A stretch of DNA of 51,314 nucleotides from a virus (Duplodnaviria; Heunggongvirae; Uroviricota; Caudoviricetes). The notes beneath the pieces are model-generated. The model searched no databases. It was not told the origin of the DNA and saw only the letters and a list, made by a program, of their open reading frames with translations. Made by a program: the position numbers and the translations under genes. Below are positions 34,258 to 51,314 of this stretch, piece by piece. Position 1 is the first letter of the stretch. Each line of letters starts with the position of its first letter. The DNA lies in IMG/VR virus record IMGVR_UViG_3300042259_000065; one strand, given 5' to 3'.

Positions 34258-34402
34258 TCTGTGAAATATAAAACTATTTGAGAAAGGCTGATATTATAAC
34301 GTTTAAACAAATTGTAAGGCTTATCACAAGGTTTTATTGACAAAGGTGATAGATTGCCTTATGATTAATTTAAATTGATTACAGAAGGTTATAGGAGGTT
34401 TT

Positions 34403-42428: not shown

Positions 42429-42914
42429 TACCTAATACACTTCATCAAATAAACCTCTACCTCTTCACCACAAGCCATACACGAACGATTTAAACCATTC
42501 TCAAACAAACTTTACTCTTAATCAATAAATTATTCTAACCAAACGTGAATTTTAGAAACGATTGCGATAATTATTCTTAGCAAAGTAGAAAATTTTGAAA
42601 CAGGGGACGAAAATTATCTCAAGCATTTTACTTTTGAAAGGACGTCGATTTGATTTCAAGTAAACGTAATTGCACACGACGAAAGAATTATCTTAACCTA
42701 TCGCGTTTCTCTAAAAATTTGTATCAGATTGGAAAATGATCTTTAGCAATCGTGAAAATTTGGGATAATGATAATGAGTGTGAGAATTATTTACTTTGTA
42801 GAATGAAAACCATTATTATTTGATAATGTTGTCATTAGTAAATAGCGGGATCGGTTGGTTCCTGCAAAACCTTGATCTTAACTTGTAAGATTCGCGAGCT
42901 AATGGCTAACCGCA

Positions 42915-43439
42915 AGTGATTTCCTGATTTGTTGAATATATTATAAAGCCACTCGCCAATAAAAGCAAGTGACTTTGATCACAATTTTAGCTATTTTCGT
43001 ACTCTTTTAGCCACTTTCTAGCTTGCATAATGCTTTTAGTGTTAAAGTTTATATAATAGAATCCGTTTTTATAAACATTATAAACCCAAGTTTTTTGGCA
43101 AAATTCAAAAGTAAATAGATGACCATTAAGCTTTAAAGTACCATTTTTTGCATTAGCTGCCATCTTTTGCGCGCCATCCAGTAGTTTGTTCATATTGATA
43201 GCCATATATGCGATCCTCTTTGTTGTTCACTTGTTAGTAGGTAACCGTTTACCTTAAAAAGAATATTAATACTTTAAGTATGAAAATACAAGGCTTTTTA
43301 AACCTTATATTTAATTTTGTGACTCAAGTCACGTTTATAAATATCATCCACTCTTTATAGCTACCAACCTATTTAGACTTAAGTCTGCGACAATAACGGC
43401 TTCGCTAGTGATTTCCTGATTTGTTGAATATATTATAAA
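42915..43439 (-). repeat. Two identical 33-bp direct repeats (42915-42947, 43407-43439) forming the -10/leader of duplicated leftward promoters
   Basis: AGTGATTTCCTGATTTGTTGAATATATTATAAA occurs twice. Upstream -35 elements TTGCTT and TTGCAA lie at 17-nt spacing. Confidence 0.85.
42987..43205 (-). CDS. Small early protein
   Basis: SD GAGGA; own promoter TTGTAT-17-TAATAT. Confidence 0.65.
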   Translation of the reverse strand: MAINMNKLLDGAQKMAANAKNGTLKLNGHLFTFEFCQKTWVYNVYKNGFYYINFNTKSIMQARKWLKEYENS

Positions 43440-43478
43440 AGAGATCGCTCACTATTGCAAGCGATCTTTATCACAATT

Positions 43479-43616
43479 TTATTTATTAATACTTTCTATG
43501 TGCCAGATAAAAGATCTAGGAAGCATACTATAAGCTATTGCAGAAACTTGATCATAGTTCATACCATGAAAATCTCTATATTGTACTTTAAAACCGTTAT
43601 TCCATACTAGTCGCAT
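43479..43616 (-). CDS. 45-aa early protein (not in ORF track)
   Basis: SD GAGG; MRLVWNNGFKVQYRDFHG...ESINK*. Confidence 0.55.
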   Translation of the reverse strand: MRLVWNNGFKVQYRDFHGMNYDQVSAIAYSMLPRSFIWHIESINK

Positions 43617-43888
43617 AATAAAACCTCTTAATTGTTGTTCGCTAAAATTTCCTAAAGATTACACCCATCTTTTTATAGAGTCAAACACTTTTTAAGTAAA
43701 ATTTATCCTTGCCCAGGTGGATACTTTTCACCTGGAGGATAAGGCGCAGAAAAGTGTGAGATTCCGCACAATTTTGGCGCTTAAAAGTGTATAAATGCGC
43801 TTACCATGTAAAAACAACTTGCACAACTTGATAAGATTGTTTATTGTGTAGTTATTCCAACGGGAACTACTAACAAAGGTTTAAAGTT

Positions 43889-44044
43889 ATGATTAACGTT
43901 ATCATCCAAGAATACGAAACAAGCGCTCCAGAACGTCGTACAATGCCAGCAAGCCACGCTCACAAACTGGGCTTATCAAAAGCATTCTATAAAGTGCAAT
44001 TGCTAGGCGAGTTCGGTCAAGTTGATTTCGAGTACAAAGCTTAA
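43889..44044 (+). CDS. 51-aa early protein (not in ORF track)
   Basis: Follows promoter TTGCAC-17-TATTGT; SD AAAGG. Confidence 0.6.
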   Translation: MINVIIQEYETSAPERRTMPASHAHKLGLSKAFYKVQLLGEFGQVDFEYKA

Positions 44045-44266
44045 GGAGTAACAATCATGCATATACCAACTTTTGAACAATGGCTAGAAAGCCCTTACAA
44101 GTTCAATATTGATCTAGTTGTATTATGTAATCTTGGGGAGATCCGATCCTAAAATATAAATATGATATAGGTCACAGATAATACACTTATAGGAAGTTAA
44201 AGGTTTACATACTTTTATAAATGATTTATATTACACTCAATCCGAACACAAAAGAGACGTACTATT

Positions 44267-44506
44267 ATGTTTTATTGTTTACATACATTTTTAGATCCAT
44301 TGGGTATAGAATCATATATGATCACTCGCCCGTTAGGTGCTGAATCAACTATCCGGATCGTATGCGGAAAGGTTACACAACTAAAGACTGAATACTATTT
44401 CAGCCATTATAAAGAGATCGCTAGAATGGATCGCAAGTTACCACGCCGCCCATCTATGGTAGACTATGGACTGACAAAAGTTAGTTACAGCGAGATATAT
44501 TGTTAA
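44267..44506 (+). CDS. Hypothetical early protein
   Basis: ORF in early cluster. Confidence 0.5.
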   Translation: MFYCLHTFLDPLGIESYMITRPLGAESTIRIVCGKVTQLKTEYYFSHYKEIARMDRKLPRRPSMVDYGLTKVSYSEIYC

Positions 44507-44633
44507 TAATGTGACACACTTCACAAATTTATTCAGACTATAGAAAATAATACTTGCATTAAAATTTCAATCGTTTATATTAAACACATCAGCCAAGCAA
44601 TGACGCAAGGCACAACAAAGAGAGATTAAGATC

Positions 44634-44858
44634 GTGGACAGAGTATTTAAGAAAGGCGATTTTATAGGCCATCTAGGGTTTATTACTGTTGATTGTACTA
44701 TAACAAGATCAGGCAAAATCTACTGGACAAATAAGCAAGTTCTAACTCTATTGGATGAAGAGGGGCGACCTTTTACCAATGCACAATTTAGAAAAAATGC
44801 ATATAAGCAGGCTGAAAATTTCTTTAAATCATTAGGCTGGGTATTGGGGGATCTTTAA
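44634..44858 (+). CDS. Hypothetical early protein
   Basis: Follows the TTGCAT promoter. Confidence 0.55.
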   Translation: MDRVFKKGDFIGHLGFITVDCTITRSGKIYWTNKQVLTLLDEEGRPFTNAQFRKNAYKQAENFFKSLGWVLGDL

Positions 44859-44862
44859 TATT

Positions 44863-45042
44863 ATGACTAAAGCAGAAGCGGTTAAACTTTACAAGATGGA
44901 AAATTCAGAATTCATCAAAGAGTGCAAAGCACGGAAAGATCGCGTTATGTTACGCATAGCTTGGAACGATTGGACAGACAGCCTTTGCAAGGATGGTGTT
45001 ATCACCGAGTCACAGTACCACAATTGGTCTAATCCGTTCTAA
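44863..45042 (+). CDS. 59-aa conserved phage early protein (not in ORF track)
   Basis: AWNDWTDSLCKDGVIT..QY..W..PF motif. Confidence 0.65.
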   Translation: MTKAEAVKLYKMENSEFIKECKARKDRVMLRIAWNDWTDSLCKDGVITESQYHNWSNPF

Positions 45043-45138
45043 TGTGATAAAGTTCACACATTAACAAAAGCGCTATTTACTTGTATAGATAACGCTTTAT
45101 AATGTGAAACATAAATCAACGAAAACAAGGTGCATAAT

Positions 45139-45333
45139 ATGTCTATTTCATATCTTAATACAAAAATATACGGGCAAGTTGAAACACTTGATCAATTAGA
45201 TTCTAGCGATTTCAAAGATTATAAAGCCTTCAGAGCAGAGAAAAAACGCCTATTAGGTGAATACGTTCTGGCAGGTGGTCACGGTGCCCCGTATTGGTCT
45301 AGACGTTCAACAAAAGCTTATAAGGGGGCATAA
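45139..45333 (+). CDS. Hypothetical early protein
   Basis: ETLDQLD...EY.LAGG...YWSRR motif. Confidence 0.6.
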   Translation: MSISYLNTKIYGQVETLDQLDSSDFKDYKAFRAEKKRLLGEYVLAGGHGAPYWSRRSTKAYKGA

Positions 45334-45334
45334 C

Positions 45335-45559
45335 ATGCAAGCAATCATGATTGAAGGTTTATTTGTTATTCCTACGCTTGTGCCACTGGGTCAAATTAAA
45401 GTAGGCGACACTATTCTGCACAATGGGAAACTTAAGACTGTTTCACGCTCAAATATAAAACATGATTCTTTTATGGGTTTAACTTTGTTCGGGGATAGCT
45501 ACCACATCAAAAGAAAAGTTATCAAATGTAAGATCTTTAATGGTTTAAAATTTATTTAG
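45335..45559 (+). CDS. Hypothetical early protein
   Basis: IKVGDTILHNGKLKTV...DSFMGLTLFGDSY motif. Confidence 0.6.
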   Translation: MQAIMIEGLFVIPTLVPLGQIKVGDTILHNGKLKTVSRSNIKHDSFMGLTLFGDSYHIKRKVIKCKIFNGLKFI

Positions 45560-45679
45560 TGACGACAGTCATAAATTAATTATAACAGGGAATTTTTGTT
45601 TGACTTGATGAAAATTCCCGCTTATAGTTAATTACATAGATAGGCAATAAAGCTTAACATACTGAAAAAGGTACATACT

Positions 45680-46093
45680 ATGTCAAACCAAAAACAAATC
45701 AAACTAGCGCTTTTCAAAATTGTTAATGATTCAATTGACACTGAAGCTTATACTGACCAAGAATTCTCAACAGTGGCGGATAAGTGTAAATATGTTTTAA
45801 AATGTTTTGATAATGAATATTATGATCGTAGTGAACCAAACTACACAAAACGTCTAGCCGGATGGTTGCAAGGTTTACCTACAATTGTTACGGTCCCTTT
45901 TTACTATGTAGAGATCATCAAGATCGGATACAAGCTAGATCTTATAAAGAAAGGAAAATATAAAACCACAACAGAAAACAACGAGCAAAAGTTTATTGAA
46001 CAATGGTTCGAATTAATGGCGCACAAATTGATCCAGATGTCGCAAATGAAATCCTATGCTGAAAATCAATTTAATAGTTACATTGCCGAGTGA
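45680..46093 (+). CDS. Hypothetical early protein
   Basis: Follows promoter TTGACT-17-TATAGT; WLQGLP motif. Confidence 0.65.
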   Translation: MSNQKQIKLALFKIVNDSIDTEAYTDQEFSTVADKCKYVLKCFDNEYYDRSEPNYTKRLAGWLQGLPTIVTVPFYYVEIIKIGYKLDLIKKGKYKTTTENNEQKFIEQWFELMAHKLIQMSQMKSYAENQFNSYIAE

Positions 46094-46500
46094 TGGGATG
46101 GGATAATATGCGATTGCTCGGATACCATATCGCCAAAAGGAAAAAGCTAGATGATTTAACACTAGAAATTATTGGGCAGCAAATTTATAATGCCTTAAGT
46201 GGTAGCAATGCTTCAGATGAAAAAATCATGCAAGATTTCAAAAAGTTTTATATTTTTTACCAAATTGTTAATCTCTTAGAGAATCGCGATACTATCGAAA
46301 TAACTCAAGATGTTTGGGAAGACTTGAGTTTATCTGAAGAAGAATTTCGAGTCAGTTTACATGGGTTCTATAAGACAATCCAAGGGGTAAACAAGCTAGA
46401 AAAGGCTACTAAAGCTAAAATTAATCAAGGGTTATCAGCAGAGATTGTTTGGTCAAAGCATAATCTTTTAAACCAAGTACGATTTACTAAAGTGTATTAA
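46090..46500 (+). CDS. Hypothetical early protein
   Basis: Overlapping start. Confidence 0.55.
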   Translation: MMGWDNMRLLGYHIAKRKKLDDLTLEIIGQQIYNALSGSNASDEKIMQDFKKFYIFYQIVNLLENRDTIEITQDVWEDLSLSEEEFRVSLHGFYKTIQGVNKLEKATKAKINQGLSAEIVWSKHNLLNQVRFTKVY

Positions 46501-46670
46501 TTATAAGGAAACAAAATGAAGGCATCGATAAACTTTACCAAAACACGAAATAAACAACAGTACAATTTTGCAGAGTGGGAAGATTCAAAACAAACCAAGC
46601 GCGAGAAAAAGAAACATGATCGCAGCGGTCGAGATGTTAAACGAAATTATTGATAAATTGTGATACAAGC

Positions 46671-46702
46671 CCCGCTTCTTAGTTGAGGCGGGATTTTTCT
46701 TT
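46671..46702 (+). terminator. Terminator
   Basis: CCCGCTTC-ttagtt-GAGGCGGG followed by a T-rich tract. Confidence 0.7.
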
Positions 46703-46782
46703 TAATAAAGCTTGCAATCTTGAGCAAGTTTGCTATTATGTATTTAACGAAACGTGACACAACTTAGACAAAAGGTTAACAT

Positions 46783-47077
46783 CATGAAAAATTATATCTT
46801 GGCGATAATTCTACTTTCTATCAGCAGCTTTTCATTTGATGCAAATGCAACTGAGCCGATGCAATACAGCGTTGATCAAGATAAAATCACTACTACAACA
46901 GCACCAACTAGCGGACTACTGAAGGCGAATTGCAAAGCTTTCGACAAAGACGGTAAAACTATTGCGGGGCAACTTGTGACGGTAGACCAAGAATTTTTGG
47001 CGCAGGGGCTTTACATTGTAGAATTTAACCTATACAATGAGCAGCACAATAAAGTTAATTTAGTTAAATGTAAATAA
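46783..47077 (+). CDS. Exported early protein with signal peptide
   Basis: MKNYILAIILLSISSFSFDANA signal-like N-terminus with A-N-A cleavage motif. Confidence 0.6.
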
Positions 47078-47090
47078 TAGGGTACAGATT

Positions 47091-47495
47091 ATGAAAACTT
47101 TAAACATCGCATTAAACAAAAATTTACCGGAAGCTACACAATTAAACCAATTATGTGATCTCCTACGTGAGGAGTTGAAACACCGCCATAAAAATAAAAA
47201 TCGTCGTTATGCTGAAGTTAGAAATACTCTTATCAATAATAATTTGTTTAAATCCGTTAAAATCAGCGATAAAAAACCTAGTGCATGGTCTAGCAATTTA
47301 CGTGATAAATTGAACAATAGGACGTTTGAACAATGTTATTTAGGGGAGTTATATAATTGCAATAGTTTAAAACAGTTGTATACGGTCATTTACAAAATAC
47401 AAATTGATCGCCTAGCTGGGCTAAGTGGCAGAGCTATAGCTAAGCAAGTCTTAAGAGGTAAAAACAATGTGCCGTGTAAAACTATACAACTTTGA
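47091..47495 (+). CDS. Basic hypothetical protein
   Basis: ORF in early cluster. Confidence 0.6.
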   Translation: MKTLNIALNKNLPEATQLNQLCDLLREELKHRHKNKNRRYAEVRNTLINNNLFKSVKISDKKPSAWSSNLRDKLNNRTFEQCYLGELYNCNSLKQLYTVIYKIQIDRLAGLSGRAIAKQVLRGKNNVPCKTIQL

Positions 47496-47757
47496 AGATA
47501 ACAATAAACTTTCTGAATTCATTGATCATTTGGAAAATCAACAGGATGTAACATTTATCTATTATCCAGAAAATCAAACTATTGTGCTAGATTTCCCTTG
47601 GGTAGCAACAAGCAAGATCTTTTATGCAAGCGCGATAGATTATCTAAAGAATAACGTTATTCTGGCAATAGGACCGGATTGCCAAGGGACAAATGAATTG
47701 CAAGAGTGTGAGCATATTGATTTGGAAAATAAAATGCTTGTGAGTGGTAAAATGTGA
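47467..47757 (+). CDS. Hypothetical protein
   Basis: SD GAGG. Confidence 0.55.
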   Translation: MCRVKLYNFEDNNKLSEFIDHLENQQDVTFIYYPENQTIVLDFPWVATSKIFYASAIDYLKNNVILAIGPDCQGTNELQECEHIDLENKMLVSGKM

Positions 47758-47860
47758 CTTTCGTCACTTTACAATAGATTAAACTTTTAGTATTATTACA
47801 TTGTCGGCAGGGGGAATAGTTTCTTACTGGACAAGTGGCAAAATTGCCAAGGTGGATAAA

Positions 47861-48244
47861 ATGGGTAAAGTATATTCTTGTAAATGTTGTGGCTCTGATG
47901 TAACAGTACCTTATTTTTATAATAAAGGGGTTTATGGTTATACTTGCATCCGTAAAGTTAACCCAAACGCTAAAAAGACCAAAGCCAAATTTGTTAAAGT
48001 GGATTATATCGAAATTAAAAGAACCGAAGGAACGGCAACAGGCACAGCAGCGGCGTTATTAGATGGTAAAAAATACAATTGCGGCCGTATACTTTTTGAC
48101 ATGGCAGACGCACAGAAAGGGGTCTTTGAAAAATTTAAATGTTCTAACCTTCAGGAAACTGACCAAGGGTGGTTTATGATGGTAAAAGATACAAACGGAC
48201 GTGATCTATATAAAGATCGATATACAGGTAAATCAATTTTTTAA
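47861..48244 (+). CDS. Zn-finger early protein
   Basis: CKCCG...YGYTCIRK motif; promoter TTTACA-17-TATTAT upstream. Confidence 0.6.
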   Translation: MGKVYSCKCCGSDVTVPYFYNKGVYGYTCIRKVNPNAKKTKAKFVKVDYIEIKRTEGTATGTAAALLDGKKYNCGRILFDMADAQKGVFEKFKCSNLQETDQGWFMMVKDTNGRDLYKDRYTGKSIF

Positions 48245-48287: not shown

Positions 48288-48776
48288 TCATACCTTTCTA
48301 AACAATTTATAATCGAACTGGTACAATTTCCCTTGTAATTGTTCACCTTGCACATTAAACCATTTCCTGTTAGTGATCGTTCTTGGTGTATTAACTTTGT
48401 ATTGATTGCTATCAAATCGCCCGTTATTAGATTTATTCTTGATGATAGTTAACAGGCCCACTTCAGAGAGCAGAGAGATCTTTCTTGATAACTTTCTATC
48501 ATTGATTCCTAGTTCTTCACATATTAGAGAATAATTAGGATAAATGTTATCGAAGCCATGTACCTTGCCAAAATTAAACAAATAAGAAAAAATCAGCTTA
48601 CAATCACTATCTAAGATCCACTCCTTATCTAATCCGGTTTTTTTATCTTTTATTGAATTAATAGCCTGAACTCTATAGATTCTAGACAGCCATTTTTTCA
48701 CGTTTACATAATGGCCCGTATCAATTTCTACATGATCATTGTAGAGTATCTTTTGTGTTCTCTTCAGTGTTGGCAT
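48288..48776 (-). CDS. Winged-helix DNA-binding protein (replication-initiator-like HTH)
   Basis: IYPNYSLICEELGINDRKLSRKISLLSEVGLLTI...SNQYKV. Confidence 0.7.
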   Translation of the reverse strand: MPTLKRTQKILYNDHVEIDTGHYVNVKKWLSRIYRVQAINSIKDKKTGLDKEWILDSDCKLIFSYLFNFGKVHGFDNIYPNYSLICEELGINDRKLSRKISLLSEVGLLTIIKNKSNNGRFDSNQYKVNTPRTITNRKWFNVQGEQLQGKLYQFDYKLFRKV

Positions 48777-50591: not shown

Positions 50592-51314
50592 TTATAATGT
50601 ATTATATGGATTATCAAAACTACAATTCTTAACCCACTCGACACTTTTATTGAACTGTTGTGTATCCATTTCAATACAAATACTATTACGGCCTTCCAGA
50701 TAACAAGCTACTGCTGTTGACATACTGCCTGCAGTAAAGTCTAGGACAGTAGCACCTTCGTTGGTGTAGGTTCTAATCATATAACGTAGTAAGTCTAATG
50801 GTTTTTGTGTAGAGTGGAGATTAAGCTTTTGTTTATCACTGGAAAACTTTAAGACGTCACGAGGGTATCTATCAGTCTGACCTCCACCAGAAATACCTAA
50901 TGTAACTTTACCATAGAGTTCACCATCATCGCCGTGCTTTGTATAGGTGTTGGCAGGTTTGTGTCCATTAGTCTTTTGTGGGTTATATGTAGGTAGTTTA
51001 TTATAAAACACTAGAATGTTCTCATGAGCTTTCATAGGCATCTTCTTTGCATTAAGATGACCTGTAGCAGAAGTTTTCTCCCAAATCCATTCATATTTAA
51101 GTTTACCTATATTGCTACAACCTAAGACTTTATCAAAAGGTGTTTGTGCAAACAATAAAATAGGAGTATCTGTGTAGGTATGTAATGGTAACCATTTCCA
51201 CATTTCTTCTAAATCTACACATGAATCCCATGGTGCTTGCGTGGTTCCATAAGGCAGGTCTGTCAAAACTAAATCTACAGATGTGTAATCTAAATCAGCA
51301 CTACAGACTTTGGT
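50592..51314 (-). CDS. DNA adenine/N4-cytosine methyltransferase, beta class (5' end outside window)
   Basis: Motif IV TDLPYG precedes HSTQKP...VLDFTAGS (motif I); frame open to the window edge. Confidence 0.9.
   Translation of the reverse strand, partial: TKVCSADLDYTSVDLVLTDLPYGTTQAPWDSCVDLEEMWKWLPLHTYTDTPILLFAQTPFDKVLGCSNIGKLKYEWIWEKTSATGHLNAKKMPMKAHENILVFYNKLPTYNPQKTNGHKPANTYTKHGDDGELYGKVTLGISGGGQTDRYPRDVLKFSSDKQKLNLHSTQKPLDLLRYMIRTYTNEGATVLDFTAGSMSTAVACYLEGRNSICIEMDTQQFNKSVEWVKNCSFDNPYNTL

What the first reader, a model, noticed from the sequence alone, without database searches (positions are those of the whole stretch)
42960..47800. Early promoters carry CRP-like boxes at activating positions: possible host cAMP sensing by a lytic phage
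Seven near-consensus TGTGA-N6-TCACA sites lie at 42968, 43318, 43460, 43755, 44510 (perfect), 45043 (perfect) and 47753, with a weaker one at 45558. Each is upstream of a sigma70 promoter. Three overlap the -35 by exactly 1 nt (centre about -42, class II). The others centre near -60, -70, -71.5 and -91.5 (class I phasing). I saw no comparable cluster in the rest of the window. This suggests early transcription is tuned to host carbon status via cAMP-CRP, or via a phage protein with the same specificity.
Basis: partly seen in the sequence, partly recalled or inferred. Interest (0 to 1): 0.78.

Follow-up and report, generated by a model that had tools for sequence, protein, structure and literature searches.

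The report
CRP-type boxes on phage early promoters
A Vibrio phage of the ICP1 (cholera phage) group carries, upstream of nearly all of its first-expressed promoters, near-perfect copies of the DNA site read by the host's sugar-starvation regulator CRP, always on the same face of the DNA helix; this gives a concrete, testable idea of how these phages start infection, although no binding has yet been shown.

Summary
The window has nine TGTGA-N6-TCACA boxes in 42968-47768: seven with at most 1 mismatch, against 0.13 expected, plus two with 2 mismatches. Nine or ten of the 11 intergenic sigma70-type promoters there carry a box. The same cluster occurs in six relatives, including ICP1 (14 of 19 genome hits in 6.3 kb, seven perfect), but not in KVP40 or ICP2.

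Across seven phages the boxes lie at quantised gaps from the -35 hexamer: -1, 9-10, 17-20, 26-28, 36-37 and 45-49 nt. In one orthologous promoter, indels of 9 and 20 nt preserve this phase.

In ICP1 the box region (ORF7-25) is the class that peaks at 4 min and falls about 3.7-fold by 8 min in published RNA-seq. The box-free neighbouring early genes do not fall.

None of five relatives searched encodes a recognisable CRP-family protein. The best reading (about 0.6) is that host cAMP-CRP acts as a class I/II-type activator of immediate-early promoters. Binding, activation and carbon sensing are untested. A group at about -52.5 and the super-consensus site quality do not fit simple cAMP tuning.

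I found no paper describing this. Earlier notes of this scan report similar boxes in unrelated phages.

The parts
42968..42983 (-). Box 1. On the minus strand it reads TGTGATCAAAGTCACT (1 mismatch). It overlaps the -35 hexamer of a leftward promoter by 1 nt (class II-like, centre about -42.5).
   Evidence: same cassette in ICP1 (L002:8194) and the IMG/VR relative (L004:4155)
42940..42968 (-). Leftward promoter TTGCTT-17-TATAAT (-35 at 42968..42963, -10 at 42945..42940). No ORF over 41 aa lies downstream, so it may drive a non-coding RNA.
   Evidence: part of the duplicated 85-nt cassette 42911-42995 / 43403-43487
43318..43333 (-). Box 2, TGTGACTCAAGTCACG (1 mismatch). It lies 26 nt upstream of a weak leftward promoter, centre about -69.5.
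   Evidence: same box, gap and hexamers in ICP1 (L002:8460) and L004:4504
43263..43291 (-). Weak leftward promoter TTGTAT-17-TAATAT, upstream of the 72-aa ORF 43205..42987.
   Evidence: score 5.4, conserved in ICP1
43460..43475 (-). Box 3. On the minus strand it reads TGTGATAAAGATCGCT (2 mismatches, one half-site TCGCT). It overlaps the -35 hexamer by 1 nt (class II-like).
   Evidence: resembles the V. cholerae ChIP site AGCGATTAAGATCACA
43432..43460 (-). Strong leftward promoter TTGCAA-17-TATAAT. A hairpin at 43442-43467 embraces the -35 hexamer.
43755..43770 (+). Box 4, TGTGAGATTCCGCACA (1 mismatch). It lies 48 nt upstream of the -35 hexamer of the first rightward promoter, centre about -91.5.
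   Evidence: The orthologous promoter has gap 27 in VPMCC14, 28 in ICP1, 10AMN and P018-4, and 37 in CoeS_P1.
43819..43847 (+). Promoter TTGCAC-17-TATTGT, driving the 51-aa DUF7170 gene (43889-44044).
44161..44176 (+). It lies 27 nt upstream of the -35 hexamer, centre about -70.5.
   Evidence: same arrangement in P018-4 (L005:7944)
44204..44232 (+). Promoter TTTACA-17-TATATT, upstream of ORF 44267-44506.
44510..44525 (+). Box 6, TGTGACACACTTCACA (perfect core). It lies 28 nt upstream of the -35 hexamer, centre about -70.5.
   Evidence: ICP1 L002:10322 has the same gap
44554..44581 (+). Promoter TTGCAT-16-TATATT, upstream of ORF 44634-44858.
45043..45058 (+). Box 7, TGTGATAAAGTTCACA (perfect core). 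It lies 17 nt upstream of the -35 hexamer, centre about -59.5.
   Evidence: identical in L004:7364
45076..45103 (+). Promoter TTTACT-16-TATAAT, upstream of ORF 45130-45333.
45558..45573 (+). Box 8, AGTGACGACAGTCATA (2 mismatches). It lies 26 nt upstream of the -35 hexamer, centre about -69.5.
   Evidence: the same cassette has a stronger box at the same 26-nt gap in ICP1 (perfect), 10AMN and P018-4
45600..45628 (+). Promoter TTGACT-17-TATAGT. It lies inside the inverted repeat 45588-45619, which embraces the -35 hexamer. It drives ORF 45680-46093.
   Evidence: ICP1 annotates the equivalent as Porf17
47753..47768 (+). Box 9, TGTGACTTTCGTCACT (1 mismatch). It overlaps the -35 hexamer by 1 nt (class II-like, centre about -42.5).
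   Evidence: same in CoeS_P1 (L001:12420)
47768..47796 (+). Promoter TTTACA-17-TATTAT, upstream of ORF 47801-48244.
46712..46739 (+). Contrast: the one clear early-region promoter without a box (TTGCAA-16-TATTAT). It is preceded by the terminator 46671-46692 and a lone TGTGA half-site at 46659.

Best explanation
The boxes are high-affinity binding sites for the host's cAMP receptor protein (CRP). They are built into the immediate-early promoter cassettes of ICP1-type Vibrio phages. On the newly injected DNA, host sigma70 RNA polymerase uses near-consensus -35/-10 promoters. A CRP dimer bound on the correct helical face would help recruit the polymerase. At about -42 it would do so as at class II promoters. 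At about -60, -70, -80 and -90 it would do so as at class I promoters, through the flexible alpha C-terminal domain.

Shown here:
- The motif, its 6-nt spacing and its clustering.
- Its helical phasing relative to the promoters.
- Its conservation across seven phages.
- Its coincidence with ICP1's fastest kinetic class.

Inferred: that CRP is the binder, that the effect is activation, and that it makes the start of infection depend on, or be boosted by, host cAMP-CRP. Because the sites are close to consensus, CRP would probably be captured even at low cAMP. The element may therefore act more as a built-in booster than as a graded sensor.
For: 1. Motif identity.
- With a 6-nt spacer there are 65 boxes with at most 1 mismatch (24 perfect) in 47 kb of early regions. 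Every other spacer from 2 to 10 nt gives 1-6 hits.
- The half-site profile is T .80, G .97, T .97, G .99, A .96, then a pyrimidine, with A/T-rich flanks.
- This matches the core half-site given for E. coli CRP (PMC1635313) and the sites under V. cholerae CRP ChIP-seq peaks (PMC6050953).

2. Enrichment. Density is 11-53 times that of the rest of the genome in each of seven phages, with Poisson P from 1e-7 to 1e-20. In the window there are 7 hits against 0.13 expected.

3. Geometry.
- 46 box-promoter pairs fall at gaps of -1, 9-10, 17-20, 26-28, 36-37 and 45-49 nt.
- The best-fitting period is 9.3-9.4 bp, R = 0.74-0.82. None of 2000 or 5000 uniform nulls reaches this, also with a non-redundant set of 28 pairs.
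- Orthologous promoters differ by indels of 9 and 20 nt between the box and the -35 hexamer.
- Boxes between divergent promoters are in phase with both, at gaps of 27/28 and 36/37 nt.

4. Host factor needed. In ICP1 the box region ORF7-25 has a T8/T4 read ratio of 0.16-0.44. ORF27-46 has 0.86-2.68, with no overlap. Transcription from an injected genome at time zero can use only host factors, or proteins delivered with the DNA.

5. No phage candidate.
- No cNMP-binding domain and no above-threshold Crp-type HTH was found in five relatives.
- The window's winged-helix ORF has no homologue in the relatives.
- No HTH was found in 19 early-region ORFs.
- The most conserved early protein, DUF7170, models as beta-beta-alpha-beta, not as an HTH.

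6. Specificity control. KVP40 and ICP2, which also infect vibrios, show no cluster.
Against: - There are no binding or expression data. Start sites are predicted, not mapped.
- Seven of the 46 pairs, all in relatives, place the box at about -52.5. To my knowledge (Gaston et al. 1990; Busby and Ebright 1999) this is not a canonical activating position for CRP.
- The best-fitting period (9.3-9.4 bp) is shorter than 10.5 bp, and the distal positions lie 1-3 bp nearer than the textbook -82.5 and -92.5.
- The base after TGTGA is C as often as T. T dominates in the V. cholerae ChIP sites that I could read.
- The promoters already have good -35 and -10 hexamers, so they may not need an activator.
[quoted passage not shown] This argues against fine cAMP tuning.
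- The published effect of crp and cyaA mutations on O1-specific vibriophages was attributed to adsorption.
- The link with ICP1 kinetics compares two contiguous regions, not independent promoters. One consensus promoter in the fast region, Porf18, has no box.
Confidence: 0.6

Rival explanations
1. A phage-encoded or virion-delivered dimeric DNA-binding protein, not of the CRP family, reads TGTGAY-N4-RTCACA. It controls the immediate-early class, for example by shutting it off between 4 and 8 min or by contacting the polymerase as phi29 p4 does.
For: - The boxed class is the one that is shut off fast in ICP1.
- The extended half-site TGTGAC is commoner than in host CRP sites.
- The -52.5 group is unusual for CRP.
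- Most early genes have no known function.
- The cluster is specific to this lineage and absent from KVP40 and ICP2.
Against: - No conserved candidate was found.
- 35 of the 46 boxes lie at least 9 nt upstream of the -35 hexamer, where a simple steric repressor would not work.
- An exact copy of the host CRP core and spacing would have to be a coincidence or mimicry.
- An activator of immediate-early genes would have to arrive with the DNA.
Confidence: 0.2
2. Host CRP does bind, but the main role is not activation. The sites might soak up CRP from host promoters as the genome replicates, or bend and insulate neighbouring cassettes, or damp transcription.
For: - The site quality is super-consensus: 37% have a perfect core, against 9 of 182 in E. 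coli.
- There are up to 14 sites per genome.
- The promoters are strong on their own.
- V. cholerae has a known case of paired upstream CRP sites that repress, at rtxBDE.
Against: - Strict helical phasing with the -35 hexamer, and preservation of phase through indels, would not be needed for a sponge.
- The sites are confined to the promoters of one kinetic class.
Confidence: 0.12
3. The palindromes are structural or recombinational parts of mobile promoter cassettes. They would be RNA hairpins, terminators or processing sites, or microhomologies for shuffling early genes, as proposed for PeSL cassettes of T4-type phages. No dedicated binding protein would be involved.
For: - One cassette (box, hairpin and promoter) is conserved between the window and ICP1, while the downstream genes are unrelated.
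- An 85-nt cassette is duplicated.
- Hairpins embrace two -35 hexamers.
Against: - The stem has only 5-6 bp and no U-tract follows it.
- The sequence itself is conserved in 65 copies, with no compensatory changes.
- Mismatches break the pairing rather than preserve it.
- The 6-nt spacing is specific, and the boxes are phased with promoters at six different distances.
Confidence: 0.05

Closest known systems
Class I and class II CRP (CAP)-dependent sigma70 promoters of Enterobacteriaceae and Vibrionaceae (lac, galP1; V. cholerae CRP regulon, PMC6050953)
   Same: - The 16-bp core TGTGA-N6-TCACA.
- Sites overlapping the -35 hexamer at about -42, or upstream on the same helical face at about -60, -70, -80 and -90.
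- A sigma70-type core promoter.
   Different: - The sites are on the genome of a lytic phage and serve almost a whole immediate-early gene set.
- The cores are much closer to consensus than chromosomal sites.
- There is an extra group at about -52.5.
- The core promoters are already strong.
- Binding and cAMP dependence are untested.
Spo0A boxes in the early promoters of Bacillus phages phi29 and Nf (PMC2731898)
   Same: A lytic phage carries binding sites for a host global nutritional or developmental regulator in its early promoter region. The start of infection is thereby coupled to host state.
   Different: Spo0A represses the phi29 early promoters and replication. Here the positions suggest activation, the regulator would be CRP, and the host is a Gram-negative Vibrio.
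Phage T1 pir control by cAMP-CRP and LsrR (PMC6737242)
   Same: A phage regarded as virulent has a gene under host cAMP-CRP control, which links infection outcome to host metabolic state.
   Different: In T1 this concerns a single gene and a lysogeny-like switch. Here about ten promoters of the immediate-early programme are involved.
Host PhoB- and NtcA-controlled genes of marine cyanophages (Zeng and Chisholm 2012; recalled from my own knowledge, not read here)
   Same: Lytic marine phages use a host nutrient-status regulator to drive phage genes.
   Different: Those are auxiliary metabolic genes answering phosphate or nitrogen stress. They are not the general immediate-early promoter set, and the regulators are different.
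T4-type early promoters and PeSL (promoter-early stem-loop) cassettes (a lead from scan note e1-1850049; the papers were not read here)
   Same: Many short early genes are each preceded by a reusable strong sigma70 promoter cassette with a stem-loop. The cassettes are conserved while the genes are swapped.
   Different: As far as I know, PeSL cassettes are not described with an upstream CRP-type palindrome kept in helical phase.

Membership tests
CRP (CAP) DNA site, canonical CRP-N type | Inverted repeat TGTGA / TCACA separated by exactly 6 bp | tested here: met
   65 hits (24 perfect) with a 6-nt spacer, against 1-6 for spacers of 2-10 nt; the everted and reversed controls give 1-2 hits and the direct-repeat control 10
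CRP (CAP) DNA site, canonical CRP-N type | T rather than C at the third core position (TGTGA, not the Sxy-dependent TGCGA), with the G positions most conserved | tested here: met
   T .97, G .97 and G .99 in 118 half-sites. The one exception in the window is the half-site of box 43460 (TCGCT). The definition is from PMC1635313.
CRP (CAP) DNA site, canonical CRP-N type | The host has a CRP with this specificity | tested here: met
   The hosts of the relatives are Vibrio species. V. cholerae CRP ChIP-seq peaks carry this motif (PMC6050953). The host of the window phage itself is not known.
CRP (CAP) DNA site, canonical CRP-N type | Binding by CRP that depends on cAMP | not testable with these tools
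   Needs EMSA, footprinting or ChIP.
Class II CRP-dependent promoter | Site centred near -41.5, overlapping the -35 region | tested here: met
   Window boxes 42968, 43460 and 47753 overlap the -35 hexamer by 1 nt, with 21-22 nt between the box and the -10 hexamer. Nine such pairs occur across the seven phages. Start sites are predicted only.
Class I CRP-dependent promoter | Site upstream of the polymerase site on the same helical face (near -61.5, -71.5, -82.5, -92.5) | tested here: inconclusive
   The groups at about -60, -70, -80 and -90 fit within 1-3 bp. Seven pairs at about -52.5 do not fit, and the best-fitting period is 9.3-9.4 bp.
Class I/II CRP-dependent promoter | Transcription stimulated by CRP-cAMP through AR1/AR2 contacts with the polymerase | not testable with these tools
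   Needs in vitro transcription or reporter assays with crp positive-control mutants.
Phage-encoded CRP/FNR-family regulator with its own operators | A gene with a cNMP-binding domain (PF00027) and a Crp-type HTH (PF13545) in the phage genome | tested here: not met
   No PF00027 match at E <= 1. Only sub-threshold, non-syntenic PF13545 matches in five relatives, while the control genomes matched. Only 51 kb of the window's own genome was available.
Intrinsic terminator or structured RNA | A stable G+C-rich stem followed by a U-tract, or covariation that preserves pairing | tested here: not met
   5-6 bp stems, no U-tract, sequence conserved rather than pairing. No Rfam match over a family's gathering score.
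PeSL-like mobile early promoter cassette | A reusable early promoter plus stem-loop, flanked by non-homologous genes | tested here: inconclusive
   The cassette at 45558-45628 is shared with ICP1 Porf17, but the downstream proteins are unrelated. An 85-nt cassette is duplicated. No comparison with T4-type PeSL sequences was made.

The most novel reading that the evidence does not exclude
The whole immediate-early programme of the ICP1 lineage, the dominant predator of epidemic Vibrio cholerae, is wired to host cAMP-CRP through super-consensus sites. Host carbon and energy state would then set how fast infection starts. The abrupt shut-off of this class at 4-8 min would reflect a phage action on CRP, cAMP or the alpha C-terminal domain of the polymerase.
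Probability: 0.3. Interest if true: 0.85.

Novelty: new variant of a known kind. Interest (0 to 1): 0.68.

Why it matters
ICP1 is the main model phage of cholera ecology. [quoted passage not shown]

A conserved, phase-locked element of CRP type on almost every immediate-early promoter gives the first specific cis-element for that programme, and a named host factor to test.

If CRP is the binder, phage take-over would be linked to the same regulator that controls V. cholerae quorum sensing, competence, biofilm and virulence genes (PMC6050953). That link could help explain how well the phage infects in nutrient-poor water compared with the gut.

If CRP is not the binder, the boxes define the operator of an unknown phage regulator.

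Earlier notes of this scan report similar boxes in unrelated phages. The use of host global activators by lytic phages may therefore be widespread.

Tried and rejected
- Chance or composition: rejected.
- Generic property of Vibrio phages: KVP40 (21 scattered hits in 245 kb, none perfect) and ICP2 (2 hits) show no cluster.
- RNA hairpin, terminator or known RNA family: rejected.
- Phage CRP-family protein: none found.
- The window's winged-helix ORF 48288-48776(-) as the binder: it has no homologue in five box-bearing relatives.
- DUF7170 (43889-44044, the most conserved early protein) as the binder: the AlphaFold model (pLDDT 78.5) is beta-beta-alpha-beta with no HTH, and Foldseek against the PDB gave nothing at E <= 0.001.
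- Pfam and PHROGs scans of the early ORFs: no DNA-binding domains.
- The window's own genome is not held, so the rest of this phage could not be searched.
- Zahid et al. 2010 (PMC2897465), on crp/cyaA and JSF phages, is not held. Only second-hand summaries were read.
- Table S1 of PMC13595925 lists the 11 immediate-early ICP1 genes that escape BREX. I did not try its supplements (the tool states that papers added after August 2026 have none held), so I could not check whether they are the boxed genes.
- A literature search for CRP at -51.5 returned only C-reactive-protein papers.
- No complex prediction was run, because that tool does not model protein-DNA pairs.

Full report
**What the window is.** The stretch 42800-48000 matches only Vibrio phages. 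The best matches are vB_CoeS_P1, vB_VibM_10AMN, P018-4 and VPMCC14, followed by many ICP1 isolates. An IMG/VR contig of 125 kb is a close relative. The window is therefore part of a myophage of about 125 kb of the ICP1 (Mohonavirus-like) group. The region of interest is a run of very short ORFs. Two small leftward units lie at 42.9-43.7 kb and a rightward array lies at 43.9-48.2 kb.

**Checking the observation.**
Their mismatches to the 10-nt core are 1, 1, 2, 1, 0, 0 and 1, and 2 for the 'weaker' site.
- A ninth box at 44161, with 1 mismatch, was overlooked.
- Seven of the nine hits with at most 1 mismatch in 51.3 kb lie within 4.8 kb. Dinucleotide shuffles of that region give 0.13 on average and never more than 2.
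- The palindrome is specific for a 6-nt spacer. Over the early regions of seven phages (47 kb) there are 65 hits, 24 of them perfect. Any other spacer from 2 to 10 nt gives 1-6 hits, and the reversed and everted controls give 1-2.

**Conservation.** The same clustering occurs in every relative examined.

| Phage | Hits (at most 1 mismatch) in cluster / whole genome | Cluster size |
|---|---|---|
| ICP1 | 14 / 19 (seven perfect) | 6.3 kb of 126 kb |
| 10AMN | 11 / 18 | 7.1 kb |
| VPMCC14 | 11 / 21 | 6.9 kb |
| P018-4 | 8 / 15 | 6.4 kb |
| CoeS_P1 | 8 / 17 | 10 kb |
| IMG/VR relative | 6 / 12 | 3.2 kb |

Enrichment over the rest of each genome is 11-53 fold. Two unrelated vibriophages, KVP40 and ICP2, have no cluster. 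The cluster is therefore a property of this lineage, not of Vibrio phage DNA in general.

**Anatomy relative to promoters.**
- I scored sigma70-type promoters independently of the boxes and paired each box with the best promoter downstream on either side.
- The 46 pairs fall into narrow groups of gap between the box end and the -35 hexamer: -1 (9 pairs), 9-10 (7), 17-20 (5), 26-28 (14), 36-37 (6) and 45-49 (3). Three strays remain.
- A Rayleigh test gives a best period of 9.3-9.4 bp with R = 0.74. None of 2000 uniform nulls reaches this value.
- A non-redundant set of 28 promoter-family and gap combinations gives R = 0.82, reached by none of 5000 nulls.
- With a start site 7 nt after the -10 hexamer, the box centres are about -42, -52.5, -60, -70, -80 and -90.
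- The orthologous promoter of the first rightward gene keeps its box while the distance to the -35 hexamer is 27/28 nt (ICP1, 10AMN, P018-4, VPMCC14), 37 nt (CoeS_P1) or 48 nt (window and IMG/VR relative). Indels of 9 and 20 nt thus preserve the helical face.
- Boxes between divergent promoters are in phase with both (gaps of 27/28 and 36/37 nt).
- In the window, 9-10 of the 11 intergenic promoters between 42.9 and 47.8 kb carry a box. Only the promoter at 46712 clearly lacks one.

**Motif.** The half-site profile is T .80, G .97, T .97, G .99, A .96, followed by a pyrimidine (C .44, T .42), with A/T-rich flanks. This is the canonical CRP-N core (PMC1635313). The boxes resemble the best sites under V. 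cholerae CRP ChIP-seq peaks, such as TGTGATATGATTCACA and AGCGATTAAGATCACA (PMC6050953). The phage boxes are much closer to consensus than chromosomal sites. [quoted passage not shown]

**Link to timing.**
- In ICP1 the boxes lie upstream of ORF10, 12, 15, 17, 20 and 21, and in the divergent region ORF22-25.
- Published RNA-seq classes gp8-21 and gp25 as early (PMC7567579, Table S1).
- From the raw counts of that paper I computed the ratio of reads at 8 min to reads at 4 min. It is 0.16-0.44 (median 0.27) for ORF7-25 and 0.86-2.68 (median 1.13) for the adjacent box-free early genes ORF27-46. There is no overlap, and Mann-Whitney gives P = 4e-7.
- The box region is thus the true immediate-early class that is rapidly shut off.
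- This compares two contiguous regions, not independent promoters. Porf18, inside the fast region, has no box.
- A 2026 paper reports that BREX arrests ICP1 at a small immediate-early set of 11 genes (PMC13595925). I could not read which genes these are.

**Who binds.**
- Immediate-early transcription can use only host proteins, or proteins injected with the DNA.
- ICP1 encodes no RNA polymerase, and its regulation is described as unknown (PMC9040626).
- Five relatives have no cNMP-binding domain and only sub-threshold, non-syntenic Crp-type HTH matches.
- The window's winged-helix ORF 48288-48776(-) is absent from the relatives.
- The early ORFs show no DNA-binding domain.
- The most conserved early protein is a 51-aa DUF7170, 76-90% identical across the group. 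It models as beta-beta-alpha-beta and has no structural match.
- Host CRP is therefore the most economical candidate. I put this at about 0.6.

**What does not fit.**
- The group at -52.5 is not a canonical activating position, as far as I know.
- The period is shorter than 10.5 bp.
- TGTGAC is as common as TGTGAT.
- The core promoters are strong on their own.
- The sites are of super-consensus quality, which argues for constitutive capture rather than graded sensing.
- The known crp/cyaA effect on O1-specific phages was ascribed to adsorption.

The rivals are a phage regulator with CRP-like specificity (0.2), CRP binding for a purpose other than activation (0.12), and a structural or recombinational role of the cassettes (0.05).

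**Novelty.** Full-text searches that combined ICP1 or vibriophage with CRP, cAMP, promoter or catabolite found no report of these boxes. The principle has precedents: Spo0A sites in phi29 and Nf (PMC2731898) and cAMP-CRP control of T1 pir (PMC6737242). Earlier unchecked notes of this scan describe CRP-type boxes on early promoters of unrelated phages, including another vibriophage. Within the scan this is therefore a recurring theme, seen here in a well-studied phage lineage for which published expression data exist.

Noticed in passing
window 42911-42995 and 43403-43487: An 85-nt cassette is duplicated at 79% identity. It holds a transcribed leader, a -10 hexamer, a -35 hexamer, a CRP-type box and AATTTTA. 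The first copy has no ORF over 41 aa downstream (leftward, towards 42400), so it may drive a non-coding RNA. ICP1 is reported to express abundant ncRNAs (PMC9040626).
   Followed up: partly
window 45588-45619 and 43442-43467; ICP1 L002:11335-11366: Inverted repeats of 11-13 bp embrace the -35 hexamer of two strong early promoters. The first is conserved in ICP1 (Porf17), 10AMN and P018-4. They could be terminators for the upstream unit fused to the next promoter (PeSL-like), or operators of another factor.
   Followed up: no
window 45680-46093 versus ICP1 L002:11430-11846: The same promoter cassette (box at a 26-nt gap, hairpin, TTGACT/TTGACA promoter) drives unrelated proteins of 137 and 138 aa in the two phages (BLASTP E = 7.6). 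The cassettes are conserved while the early genes are swapped.
   Followed up: partly
window 43889-44044: This 51-aa DUF7170 protein is 76-90% identical across ICP1-type phages, far more conserved than its neighbours. ICP1 ORF23 is annotated as 89 aa with 'no visible ribosome-binding site' and probably starts at the internal Met, giving 51 aa. The AlphaFold model is beta-beta-alpha-beta, and Foldseek against the PDB gave no match at E <= 0.001.
   Followed up: partly
window 34313-34328: An isolated 1-mismatch box (TGTAAGGCTTATCACA) lies 8 nt upstream of a TTGACA hexamer, outside the cluster. It is conserved in the IMG/VR relative (G002:120673). It may be a further boxed promoter in the delayed-early region.
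   Followed up: no
window 48288-48776 (-): A 162-aa ORF with a Cdc6_C-type winged helix / HTH_36 lies just right of the early region. It has no homologue in five related phages, so it is an accessory gene of this phage.
   Followed up: partly
window 50592-51266 (-): An N6/N4 DNA methylase (PF01555, E = 6e-21) lies at the right end of the window.
   Followed up: no
ICP1 HQ641347 8182-8289 (L002:10230-10337): Three boxes lie in tandem upstream of one promoter (ORF20), two of them perfect and 17 nt apart centre to centre. This resembles class III or multi-site CRP promoters.
   Followed up: no
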